Position numbers: made by a program. From assembly GCF_054482595.1 (NCBI RefSeq), contig NZ_CM137008.1: a stretch of DNA of 64,000 nucleotides. One strand, given 5' to 3'. Below are positions 41,801-44,800 of the stretch, in pieces. Positions within the stretch are counted from its first letter, which is position 1. Each line of letters starts with the position of its first letter.

Positions 41801-44800
41801 AAGTATTGCCCTGCATTCTGTGGGGCGGGGTGGGTTGGTATGAAAAGAAGGATACCCATAGGTATTTAAAAAGTAAATACCCATGGGTAACTTTTTGCGG
41901 TGTCTTAACTGGTGACTAGTTGTTTGGTGAGCTATGATGCGTTTTGTGCTTTCTTTTTACGGATTTCTTCGTAGATCATATTGTAATACTGTTTTTTCTC
42001 TTCAAGAGTTTTTAATAAGTTATCCGCTTCACTTTCTGGCAGTTCGTCTAAGAGATCTAAAAAAATACGTTGTCGTGGCGTTAGAACCCTTGTTTCATAA
42101 CTGGAGGCTGTGTTCGTTGATGATGAAACGATACCATCCATCCATCCCCGGGGTAACCCAAAGGACTCTTCGATAATCTCCACCATATCATCAGCGATCC
42201 GTTTTTTTCCCTTTTTCCCCTCTGGGTACAACATTCTTGATACATAAGAAGGCTCGCGCCCGATCTTTCTGGCCACGTTAACCGCTTTACCATCGCATTT
42301 CTCATCACGAATTTTGATGAGTTGCTGTCGTCTAAATTCATATTTGTCCATAGGTAAATAATAGATGCGATTACCGCAAGGTAAACAACCTGTGGGTATT
42401 GACTTTTGTTTACCTGTGGGTATTCTTTACTGTGTTTACTAAGGAGTAGCTATGGAAGAATTAAGAATATTTCTCAATTCTCTTTCGTCAGATGAACAGC
42501 GTATGTTTGCATGCGAGTGTGGTACCAGCATCGGTTATCTAAGAAAGGCATTGAGTAAAGGTCAAGTGTTAGGGGCATCGTTATGCGTCCTTATTGAGCG
42601 AGCCAGTAATGGTGAAGTTACACGTCAGCAACTAAGGCCTTTTGATTGGATGAATATTTGGCCCGAGCTGGAAGATACCAAAACGTTAACACAACCACTT
42701 TCTAGGAGCTTGATTCATGAAAATCAAGCATGAACACATCCGCATGGCGATGAATGCCTGGGCGCATCCGGACGGTGAAAAAGTTCCGGCAGCTGAAATA
42801 ACCAGGGCTTATTTTGAACTGGGTATGACGTTCCCAGAACTGTATGACGACAGCCATCCGGAAGCCCTGGCTCGCAATACCCAGAAAATTTTCCGCTGGG
42901 TAGAGAAAGACACCCCTGATGCAGTTGAAAAAATTCAGGCGTTGTTACCAGCGATCGAAAAGGCAATGCCACCTTTGCTGGTGGCCAGAATGCGCAGCCA
43001 CAGTTCAGCTTATTTTCGGGAGCTGGTGGAGACGCGGGAGCGACTGGTGAGAGACGCTGATGATTTTGTCGCAGTGGCAATCGCCGGTTTCAATCAGATG
43101 AACCGTGGTGGCCCGGCAGGAAATGCTGTGGCAGTACATTGACTGACAATAGCCATATCGAATCGCTTCCGGCAACTCGTGAGTAAAAAGATTCGGTATC
43201 AGAAGAGGTGAGTATGGCTAACGCCTGGCTCAGATTATGGCATGACATGCCAAATGACCCTAAGTGGCGAACAATTGCCAGGGTGTCAGGGCAGCCAATT
43301 GCAACAGTGATGGCAGTGTATATCCACCTCCTGGTGAGCGCGTCACGAAATGTCACGCGAGGTCACATTGATGTCACGACAGAAGATTTGGCAAGTGCGC
43401 TCGACGTGACAGAAGAGGTAATTGATTCAATTTTGCAGACGATGCAGGGGCGGGTACTTGATGGTGATTTAATCACTGGATGGGAAAAACGCCAGGTGCT
43501 TAAAGAGGACAACGGCAATATTTCGCAAACCGCAAAATCTCCTGCAGAGCGCAAGAGGGCGCAGCGAGAGAGGGAAAGAAAGCGGGAACAAAATGGCGAT
43601 TGTCACGGCGCGTCACGAAATGTCACGCACATGTCACGACGAGTCACGACAGATAAAGATACAGATAAAGATACAGATCAAGAAGATCAAAACACTATGG
43701 TCCATGGCGTAAAAAACGCCACGAACCAGGCAGGGGATGTTCAGACCGTCAATCTTGGTCAGCCAGCAGGCACGACACCGGAAGCCGATTCAGCGTATGC
43801 GCTGAAAGCCGATTCGGGCGCTGTGCAGCAGGTGATGACCGCAAGGCTGGAGCAATCACACCAACTGCAGCAGCCCGAAGCCGATTCCGCCATTCAGCGG
43901 GAAGCCGATTCCGCCATTCAGCGGGAAGCCGATCGGGTAGTCCCGGAAAACACCGGGCAGTCTGTGGGACGAGTGGATTATCCGGATGTGTTCGAACAGG
44001 TCTGGCGGGAGTACCCGTTGCGTGCCGGAGCAAACCCGAAGAAATCCGCTTTCAGTGCCTGGAAGGCCAGATTACGCGAGGGGGTGCCACCAGAGGCCAT
44101 GCTGGATGGCGTGAGGCGTTACGCAAGATACTTGGCGGCTACCGGGAAAACGGGAACGGAATTTGTTCAGCGAGCGACGACGTTTTTTGGACCGGACCGG
44201 AATTTTGAGAACCCCTGGTTGCTCCCGGTAAGCGGCACGAACAACCAGCGTTGTGTGAATCATATTTCTGAACCGGATAACGAAATTCCGCCGGGCTTCA
44301 GGGGGTAAGTGTTAATTTCTGGTCATGAGGTAATTTTCAGGAGGGCTTGTGGCAAAAGTTTTTACACAAGAAGAGCGGGAAAAAATTAAAGGACAGGTTG
44401 TTGAACTCGTACGCCAGAGTGGGCGTGAGACGTTACGGCAACTGGAAGTCAAGACAGGTGCGACAAGATATCTGATGAGCGTTCTCGCAAGAGAGCTGGT
44501 TGCCAGCGGCGATGTATACAACTCTGGTTACGGGTTATTCCCGTCTGAACAGGCGCGTAAGGACTGGCAAAATGCCCGTAAAAAGCTCTCAAGGGCAAAG
44601 CTGAAGAAACCATCTGCGGTTGATCCGGACCTTATCTGGTCATTACCAGACGGAGAAATACGCCGCTACGACAGGCGCCTGAATATAATCTGTCGCGAGT
44701 GCCGGAAGAGCGAAGCTATGCAGCGTGTACTGGCTTTCTATCAGGGTAATTTTCAGGAGGCGGTACTGTAAGTGAAATTAGCTATCAGGCTTCAATTGCC

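What the first reader, a model, noticed from the sequence alone, without database searches (positions are those of the whole stretch)
43877..43933. 24-bp tandem repeat encoding EADSAIQR repeats in the replication protein linker
Perfect tandem copies imply recent slippage; copy number may vary between related prophages and modulate linker length.
Basis: seen in the sequence. Interest (0 to 1): 0.25.

Follow-up and report, generated by a model that had tools for sequence, protein, structure and literature searches.

The report
Recent 24-bp duplication in replication-protein linker
A prophage replication gene in E. coli carries one extra, perfect 24-base (8 amino acid) copy inside a floppy linker that gains and loses such units easily; it is a real, very recent but ordinary length polymorphism.

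Summary
Positions 43877-43933 hold 2.4 perfect copies of GAAGCCGATTCCGCCATTCAGCGG, in frame (EADSAIQR). They lie in a 364-aa phage replisome-organizer gene (43214-44308, +) of a lambdoid prophage. The repeat sits in a predicted disordered linker (aa 129-252) between two folded domains. A sister prophage (E. coli HCM-27C-1) matches the window over 7.1 kb except for one mismatch and exactly this 24-bp unit. The 5-head allele is rare: 8 of 1646 full-length copies in complete E. coli genomes, and 1 IMG/VR contig. The repeat is the newest member of an older family of 8-aa units that share a 9-nt head, RAAGCCGAT. Alleles with 1, 2, 3, 4 and 5 heads exist, and every junction falls in a head. That pattern fits slippage or unequal exchange between short direct repeats. 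The units look dispensable: a near-identical C-domain occurs with a different linker lacking them. The linker is the least constrained part of the protein. One loose end remains: the head keeps identical codons in lineages only 45-59% identical. Population data show no such constraint, so this is suggestive only. Interest is low.

The parts
43214..44308 (+). Phage replisome-organizer (replication initiator) gene, 364 aa plus stop. RefSeq starts it at this ATG; the mechanical ORF begins at GTG 43208.
   Evidence: ORF list. PHROG 3729 at E 1e-252. RefSeq CDS WP_001262353.1 in strain Ecol_881. Sub-threshold Pfam PF09681 match on the N-domain.
43877..43933 (+). The reported tandem repeat: two full 24-bp units (43877-43900 and 43901-43924, each EADSAIQR) plus the first 9 nt of the next unit.
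   Evidence: TRF period 24, 2.4 copies, 100%; sequence.
43901..43924 (+). The extra unit relative to the common allele. Equivalently 43877-43900; the two cannot be told apart.
   Evidence: Removing it makes the gene identical to the HCM-27C-1 allele, 0 mismatches over 1077 nt.
43925..43948 (+). Unit U4 (EADRVVPE), an older diverged unit. Its 9-nt head GAAGCCGAT supplied the downstream direct repeat for the duplication.
   Evidence: Pattern search; alignments.
43781..43828 (+). Older diverged units U1 (EADSAYAL, 43781-43804) and U2 (KADSGAVQ, 43805-43828). A 48-nt spacer (43829-43876) follows.
   Evidence: the repeat finder family D1; pattern search; allele junctions.
43598..43969 (+). Coding region for the predicted disordered linker (aa 129-252) between the N- and C-terminal domains.
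   Evidence: AlphaFold pLDDT below 50 at aa 129-183 and 185-252. Highest amino-acid variability in the population: 36% of sites.
43342..43380 (+). Iteron-like cluster 1: four GTCAC(G/A) copies at 10-11 bp spacing, encoding a low-confidence loop of the N-domain. Context only, not part of the 24-bp repeat.
   Evidence: the repeat finder family D2; GTCACG positions; pLDDT below 50 at aa 47-52.
43601..43651 (+). Iteron-like cluster 2: five GTCACG copies at 10-11 bp spacing. Putative origin repeats.
   Evidence: TRF period 10-11; the repeat finder. 9 of the window's 36 GTCACG sites lie in 43342-43648.
43649..43697 (+). A+T-rich stretch, (ACAGATAAAGAT)x3 and its flank, GC 0.37-0.38. It encodes (DKDT)n and is itself length-polymorphic.
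   Evidence: TRF; composition profile; alleles with -6 and +12 nt.
43698..43728 (.). Conserved 12-13 bp inverted repeat coding for the conserved peptide TMVHGxKNA.
   Evidence: Terminator-like scan hit. The hairpin is retained in distant homologs, with a compensatory T-A to A-T change.
43970..44305 (+). C-terminal domain (aa 253-364), including the DnaT-like tail VNHISEPDNEIPPGFRG (44255-44305).
   Evidence: AlphaFold. PDB DnaT chains 6aep and 2ru8 match only the tail. NCBIfam DnaT at E 6e-4 on aa 343-366 of the 366-aa ORF that starts at GTG 43208 (= aa 341-364 in the numbering from the ATG at 43214 used in this report).

Best explanation
The repeat is a very recent in-frame tandem duplication of one 24-bp (8-aa) unit. 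It lies in the intrinsically disordered linker of a prophage replisome-organizer protein. The parental allele already carried the 9-nt direct repeat GAAGCCGAT twice, 24 bp apart, as the heads of units U3 and U4. Slipped-strand mispairing during replication, or unequal exchange between these heads, copied the intervening 24 bp. The same heads, present 4 times in the common allele, also mediate deletions. This produces an allelic series with 1 to 5 heads. The units are spacer material. Adding EADSAIQR lengthens a linker of about 125 aa by 6%. It most likely has little or no effect on origin binding by the N-domain or on helicase or primosome recruitment by the C-domain. Shown here: the repeat, its frame, the parent allele, the allelic series with junctions in the heads, the predicted disorder, the relaxed constraint, and the dispensability of the units in relatives. 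Inferred: the slippage mechanism and near-neutrality.
For: The repeat is perfect and in frame. A parent allele exists: 7.1 kb identical apart from 1 mismatch and the 24-bp indel, with the gene identical after removal of 43901-43924. The allele is rare. Only 8 of 1646 full-length copies in complete E. coli genomes are 1101 or 1095 bp, against 1077 bp for nearly all others. All 7 full-length phage records lack the extra unit (1075-1077 bp). 1 of 80 IMG/VR loci has 5 heads. The exact two-unit 48-mer occurs in only 1 contig of the whole IMG/VR collection, against 539 relatives. The allelic series has every junction in a head. Fusions seen are U1/U2 (L008, P0002), U2/U3 (P0011), U1/U3 (L009, P0003), U2/U4 (P0007) and U1/U4 (P0051). 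The linker is predicted disordered. Amino-acid variability is 36% in the linker, 6% in the N-domain and 18% in the C-domain. The units are dispensable. P0124 has a near-identical C-domain behind a different linker without EAD units. P0090, P0103 and P0115 have short linkers without them. Neighbouring repeats in the same linker also vary in copy number, as in (DKDT)n. A Yersinia relative shows an analogous 15-aa linker duplication.
Against: The 9-nt head GAAGCCGAT keeps identical codons in four lineages only 45-59% identical in protein. It is the only one of 28 invariant amino-acid triplets to do so, against a baseline of 0.23 per codon. That hints at constraint beyond spacer function. No experiment shows that linker length is neutral. 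I could not enumerate all 1646 alleles; the tables show at most 60 rows.
Confidence: 0.85

Rival explanations
1. The EAD(S) units are short linear peptide motifs, acidic docking sites for a host or phage replication partner. Their number would tune recruitment, so the duplication would be functionally meaningful.
For: One to three [E/K]AD units sit just upstream of the C-domain in homologs down to 45% identity. They travel with the C-terminal module when it is joined to three different N-domains.
Against: Alleles with 1 to 5 units coexist. P0124 has a near-identical C-domain with no EAD unit. P0076, P0094 and P0110 lack the motif. The linker shows the weakest amino-acid constraint. AlphaFold gives no confident structure there.
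Confidence: 0.07
2. The 9-11 nt heads (RAAGCCGAT[T/C]) are DNA-level sites, accessory origin elements or binding sites for a host or phage protein to the right of the origin core. The tandem copy would add one site.
For: Codon-level identity of the head across four diverged lineages is unique among 28 comparable triplets. All 5 occurrences in 64 kb lie within 155 bp, downstream of an iteron, A+T-rich and hairpin arrangement.
Against: Among 72 distinct E. coli alleles, head third positions vary as often (3/12) as third positions overall (116/356). The FCI1 allele has GAAGCTGAT. Heads do not co-vary with the N-terminal DNA-binding domain or with the iteron sequence: GTCACG and GTAACGC lineages have the same heads. 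The 24-bp spacing is not helical-phase. There is no structure signal (z -0.04), no Rfam hit and no promoter or terminator match. The codon test was post hoc on 4 lineages.
Confidence: 0.05
3. The extra copy is a sequencing or assembly artefact.
For: None found.
Against: The same 1101-bp allele is present in 7 independently assembled complete genomes from several countries and hosts. It also occurs in strain FCI1 with additional differences, and in an IMG/VR contig.
Confidence: 0.01

Closest known systems
Bacteriophage lambda O protein and ori-lambda, with the Stx-phage variants
   Same: The replication initiator gene carries repeated DNA in its middle. The repeat number differs between related phages and changes the protein length. 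[quoted passage not shown] The gene here also has iteron-like repeats, an A+T-rich stretch and an inverted repeat inside it.
   Different: The protein family is unrelated in sequence: there is no Pfam Phage_rep_O hit, and it matches PHROG 3729 instead. The 24-bp repeat examined here is not the iteron set. It lies about 230 bp downstream, is G+C-rich, and does not co-vary with the DNA-binding domain.
Phage replisome organizer family (Pfam PF09681 Phage_rep_org_N; NCBI 'phage replisome organizer')
   Same: The N-domain aligns end to end with PF09681 (positions 1-119 of 121). Relatives carry the NCBI name. The gene position in the early right operon matches.
   Different: The Pfam score is below the gathering threshold (16.6 versus 23.3 bits). 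The C-terminal domain has no Pfam family.
E. coli primosomal protein DnaT (C-terminal tail)
   Same: The last 17 or so residues (VNHISEPDNEIPPGFRG) closely match the DnaT C-terminus (…INSVSEPDNHIPPGFRG).
   Different: Only the tail matches (NCBIfam 19.5 bits versus a 201-bit cut-off). The rest of the protein is not DnaT-like. Siblings with the same N-domain instead carry a true DnaT-like PF17948 domain.
In-frame tandem-repeat length polymorphism by slipped-strand mispairing between short direct repeats (general mechanism, from established knowledge)
   Same: The copies are perfect and head to tail. The parent allele carries a 9-nt direct repeat at the duplication borders. Both gain and loss alleles occur among close relatives.
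   Different: This is not a phase-variable contingency locus. The unit is a multiple of 3, so the frame is always kept. The unit number is low (1-5), and one allele dominates the population.

Membership tests
Tandem duplication by slippage or unequal exchange between short direct repeats | Identical head-to-tail copies | tested here: met
   2.4 copies, 100% identity, no indels.
Tandem duplication by slippage or unequal exchange between short direct repeats | The pre-duplication allele exists and carries a short direct repeat at the borders of the duplicated segment | tested here: met
   The HCM-27C-1 allele equals the window gene minus 24 bp. GAAGCCGAT occurs twice, 24 bp apart, in that allele.
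Tandem duplication by slippage or unequal exchange between short direct repeats | Copy-number polymorphism (gains and losses) among close relatives, with junctions in the repeats | tested here: met
   Alleles with 1-5 heads; all fusions occur within heads.
Tandem duplication by slippage or unequal exchange between short direct repeats | Measured elevated indel rate; dependence on or independence from RecA | not testable with these tools
   This needs a fluctuation assay.
Phage replisome organizer / replication initiator | Significant profile match to a curated family | tested here: inconclusive
   PHROG 3729 at E 1e-252 covers the full length. Pfam PF09681 is below threshold (16.6 versus 23.3 bits). 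No Pfam hit on the whole protein.
Phage replisome organizer / replication initiator | Position in the early operon after the repressor, cro and cII-like genes, usually followed by a helicase loader | tested here: inconclusive
   The upstream order is met. Relatives are followed by an IstB/DnaC-like ATPase. In the window a DUF977 gene follows instead.
Phage replisome organizer / replication initiator | Binds origin repeats and starts replication | not testable with these tools
   Only sequence features are available: iteron-like clusters, an A+T-rich stretch and a hairpin.
Origin iterons (as a reading of the 24-bp repeat itself) | The repeat sequence co-varies with the initiator's DNA-binding domain | tested here: not met
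   The same heads occur with three different N-domains and with both GTCACG-type and GTAACGC-type iterons.
Origin iterons (as a reading of the 24-bp repeat itself) | Nucleotide-level constraint beyond coding | tested here: inconclusive
   Codon identity across 4 lineages is suggestive. Population data show no excess constraint.
Origin iterons (as a reading of the 24-bp repeat itself) | Helical-phase spacing next to an A+T-rich unwinding region | tested here: not met
   Spacing is 24 bp in 60-65% G+C DNA, about 190 bp from the A+T-rich stretch.
Functional short linear peptide motif repeat | The motif is retained wherever the partner domain is retained | tested here: not met
   P0124 has a near-identical C-domain without any EAD unit. 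P0076, P0094 and P0110 lack it.

The most novel reading that the evidence does not exclude
The 9-nt head RAAGCCGAT (peptide E/K-A-D) is a functional element: either an accessory DNA site on the right arm of a prophage origin, or a docking motif for a replication partner. It would be conserved at codon level across lineages that are only 45-59% identical. Its copy number (1-5) would tune initiation efficiency, making the linker a recombination-prone 'dial' for prophage replication.
Probability: 0.08. Interest if true: 0.4.

Novelty: new member of a known kind. Interest (0 to 1): 0.12.

Why it matters
It matters little on its own. It is a clean, datable example of short direct repeats inside a disordered linker generating in-frame gain and loss alleles in a very common E. 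coli prophage gene. The linker and C-domain module is present in about 2056 of 5426 complete genomes. In practice, the 24-bp indel and the head-to-head deletions are easy markers for tracking this prophage lineage. They also explain the many length variants (302-374 aa) that clutter protein clusters for this family. The surrounding gene is more interesting than the repeat. It appears to carry its own origin (two co-varying iteron clusters, an A+T-rich repeat and a conserved hairpin) and a DnaT-like tail, and none of this has been characterised experimentally.

Tried and rejected
1. A 96-nt synthetic 3.4-copy query against E. coli genomes was uninformative. The tool joins overlapping pieces, so every allele scored 100% coverage.
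2. A 372-nt synthetic 3.4-copy allele with flanks was only partly useful. All 25 rows shown spanned 324 bp (the common allele), and no row spanned 372 bp. So no 3-full-unit allele was seen among the best-ranked records, but exact allele counts could not be extracted.
3. Two IMG/VR protein scans returned almost only the E. coli type, giving too little diversity for a codon-level test.
4. The single genome-contig scan with the C-domain profile returned only 17 loci, mostly very distant. None had EAD units, so it did not help the DNA-versus-peptide question.
5. Foldseek against the PDB gave no significant match (best E 0.97; weak winged-helix hits only).
6. Rfam, ssDNA folding and promoter/terminator scans found nothing at the repeat itself.
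7. The 'Eru' papers on non-lambdoid Stx phage replication modules (PMC8044961 read) do not mention replisome organizer, DnaT, iterons or repeats for this family.
8. A literature search for tandem repeats in initiator linkers found nothing.
9. The reading that the 24-bp units are the origin iterons was rejected. They do not co-vary with the DNA-binding domain and lie outside the iteron and A+T-rich block.

Full report
OBSERVATION. Tandem Repeats Finder reports one array at exactly the stated coordinates: 43877-43933, period 24, 2.4 copies, 100% matches, no indels, score 114, unit GAAGCCGATTCCGCCATTCAGCGG. The raw sequence agrees. The array lies in the + strand ORF 43208/43214-44308. In frame it reads EADSAIQR-EADSAIQR-EAD. 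Thirty-three bases matching at lag 24 has a chance probability of about 1e-20 per position (my calculation). The 11-nt pattern RAAGCCGATYS occurs 5 times in the 64-kb window, all within 43781-43935, against 0.25 expected.

WHAT THE GENE IS. The window is 100% identical to E. coli Ecol_881 (NZ_CP019029.1). There the gene is annotated only as a hypothetical protein (WP_001262353.1). It lies inside a lambdoid prophage integrated next to tRNA-Ser and mtfA. The gene order is repressor-like, cro-like (YdaS), cII-like (YdaT), this gene, then DUF977. The protein matches PHROG 3729 'replication initiation protein' over its whole length (E 1e-252). NCBI calls its relatives 'phage replisome organizer'. 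The N-domain gives an end-to-end but sub-threshold match to Pfam PF09681 Phage_rep_org_N (16.6 versus 23.3 bits). So 'replication protein' rests on homology and gene position, not on experiment.

LINKER. An AlphaFold model built on 17 homologs gives a helical N-domain (aa 1-126) and a helical C-domain (about aa 253-340), with block pLDDT of 70-89 in their cores. Residues 129-183 and 185-252 have pLDDT of about 30. The repeat occupies aa 222-240, so it lies in a predicted disordered linker. Among 72 distinct 356-aa alleles from IMG/VR, 36% of linker residues vary. The figure is 6% in the N-domain and 18% in the C-domain.

AN OLDER UNIT FAMILY AND AN ALLELIC SERIES. The two perfect copies are the newest members of a family of 8-aa units that share the head RAAGCCGAT(T/C).
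- U1 is EADSAYAL (43781).
- U2 is KADSGAVQ (43805).
- A 48-nt spacer follows.
- U3 is EADSAIQR (43877), and its duplicate starts at 43901.
- U4 is EADRVVPE (43925).

Homologs show every kind of head-to-head fusion:
- The common 356-aa allele has 4 heads (P0001, standing for 5786 member sequences).
- A U1/U2 fusion occurs in L008 and P0002.
- A U2/U3 fusion occurs in P0011.
- A U1/U3 fusion (-96 nt) occurs in L009 and P0003.
- A U2/U4 fusion occurs in P0007.
- A U1/U4 fusion occurs in P0051, leaving 1 head.
- The window has 5 heads.

All junctions fall inside the heads. This is the signature of misalignment between short direct repeats.

AGE AND FREQUENCY.
- Of 1646 full-length copies in 5426 complete E. 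coli genomes, only 7 are 1101 bp at 99.9-100% identity.
- One more (FCI1) is 1095 bp. It has the duplication plus a 6-bp loss in the (DKDT)n repeat and a synonymous GCC-to-GCT change in the U4 head.
- Nearly all others are 1077 bp.
- All 7 full-length phage records lack the extra unit (1075-1077 bp).
- In IMG/VR, 1 of the 80 best loci has 5 heads and 73 have the standard 4.
- The exact two-unit 48-mer occurs in a single contig of the whole collection, against 539 relatives of the protein.
- No allele with three full units appeared among the best-ranked records of a synthetic-allele search.
- The parental state survives. The HCM-27C-1 prophage matches the window over 7.1 kb except for one mismatch and the 24-bp indel, and the gene is identical once 43901-43924 is removed.
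- The 5-head allele also sits in strain NDM1, in a prophage with mosaic-different flanks. The module has therefore moved or been reshuffled since the duplication.

MECHANISM (inferred). The parent allele has GAAGCCGAT twice, 24 bp apart. Slipped-strand mispairing or unequal exchange between these 9-mers duplicates the 24 bp between them. The same heads cause the deletions listed above. Other repeats in the same linker behave alike. The (ACAGATAAAGAT)n / (DKDT)n stretch shows -6 and +12 nt alleles. A Yersinia organizer with the same C-domain has a 15-aa linker duplication relative to its sister species.

DOES COPY NUMBER MATTER? Three readings were compared.
- Neutral spacer. The units are dispensable. 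P0124 has a near-identical C-domain behind a completely different linker. P0090, P0103 and P0115 go from the (DK)n stretch almost straight into the C-domain. P0076, P0094 and P0110 lack the motif. Alleles with 1-5 heads coexist.
- Peptide motif. One to three [E/K]AD units do persist just upstream of the C-domain in homologs down to 45% identity. They travel with the C-terminal module when it is fused to three different N-domains.
- DNA site. In four lineages (45-59% protein identity) the head uses identical codons. Of 28 triplets of invariant, codon-degenerate residues, EAD is the only one with all codons identical, against a baseline of 0.23 per codon. That test was post hoc and rests on four lineages. 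Within the E. coli population, head third positions vary as often as others (3/12 versus 116/356). The heads do not co-vary with the iteron type (GTCACG versus GTAACGC). The region has no structure signal (z -0.04) and no Rfam hit.

I therefore rank the neutral spacer first at 0.85, with the peptide reading at 0.07 and the DNA reading at 0.05.

COMPARISON WITH KNOWN SYSTEMS. The closest functional analogy is lambda O and ori-lambda. There the origin lies in the middle of the initiator gene, and repeat number changes protein length. Stx phages have 6 iterons instead of 4, which adds 13 residues to O (PMC7466680). The gene here also seems to contain its own origin:
- GTCACG repeats at 10-11 bp spacing form two clusters (43342-43380 and 43601-43651).
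- An A+T-rich repeat lies at 43649-43697.
- A conserved hairpin lies at 43698-43728.

The 24-bp repeat is not part of that block. The protein is also not a member of the lambda O family. The C-terminal 17 or so residues match the tail of primosomal protein DnaT.

VERDICT. It is an ordinary in-frame slippage polymorphism in a disordered linker. It counts as a new member of a known kind, with low interest (0.12). The only open point is the codon-level conservation of the 9-nt head, which a larger lineage sample or a recoding experiment would settle.

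Noticed in passing
window 43342-43380 and 43601-43651: There are two clusters of GTCAC(G/A) at 10-11 bp spacing inside the replication gene, with 4 and 5 copies. 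An inverted copy lies at 43405. 9 of the window's 36 GTCACG sites lie in these 307 bp. In distant homologs (L091, L093) both clusters are replaced together by GTAACGC(A) repeats at the same two positions, so the same peptide (GNAGVTQSNA) appears twice in the protein. Some homologs have 2 or more extra copies (P0006, P0022). These are likely origin iterons that co-evolve with the N-terminal domain. Cluster 1 encodes a low-confidence loop inside that domain.
   Followed up: partly
window 43649-43697: An A+T-rich repeat, (ACAGATAAAGAT)x3 with GC 0.37-0.38, lies directly after iteron cluster 2. It encodes (DKDT)n and is itself length-polymorphic: -6 nt in L004 and L005, +12 nt in L006 and two IMG/VR loci.
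   Followed up: partly
window 43698-43728: A 12-13 bp inverted repeat (GGTCCATGGCGT-AAAAA-ACGCCACGAACC) lies immediately right of the A+T-rich stretch. It codes for the most conserved peptide of the linker (TMVHGxKNA). The hairpin is kept in homologs of 45-50% identity, with a compensatory change (GGCGT/ACGCC to GGCGA/TCGCC). It also marks the mosaic junction where different N-domains are joined to the same C-module. It recalls the palindrome on the right of ori-lambda (from memory, not tested).
   Followed up: partly
window 44255-44305: The C-terminal tail VNHISEPDNEIPPGFRG is nearly the same as the C-terminus of host primosomal protein DnaT (PDB 6aep and 2ru8: …INSVSEPDNHIPPGFRG). This may be mimicry of a DnaT interaction. 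The tail is conserved across many otherwise diverse organizer proteins.
   Followed up: partly
window 44349-44771, compared with L006-L008, L090, L091 and L093: In the window the organizer gene is followed by a DUF977 (PHROG 'Ren-like') gene, not by a helicase loader. Several relatives have an IstB/DnaC-like ATPase gene immediately downstream. How this prophage loads DnaB is unclear.
   Followed up: no
proteins P0033, P0123, P0125, P0124, P0055 and P0068; loci L007, L008: The domains are extensively shuffled. The hairpin, linker and C-domain module is joined to at least three unrelated N-domains (WLRLWHD-, MRDYAKVSPRFW- and MSEELGW-types). The WLRLWHD N-domain also occurs with a DnaT-like PF17948 C-terminus. 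The C-domain profile finds 6475 proteins (E <= 1e-3) in the 50%-identity library, yet the window protein's C-domain gave no significant Pfam match.
   Followed up: partly
L182 (Yersinia vastinensis) versus L183 (Y. pekkanenii): Another organizer with the same C-domain has a 15-aa tandem duplication (LRSDVTPPTLKRNTP + LRSDVTPPTLK…) in its linker in one species and a single copy in the other. Other family members have TDTDTD, SPSPSP, ESESES or PDSLN repeats in the linker.
   Followed up: no
window 40623-40674 (-), 46264-46439 (+), about 36225-37275: Rfam finds DicF RNA and a sok antitoxin RNA (next to hokD) in the prophage. RefSeq marks the prophage integrase as frameshifted, so the prophage may be unable to excise.
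   Followed up: no
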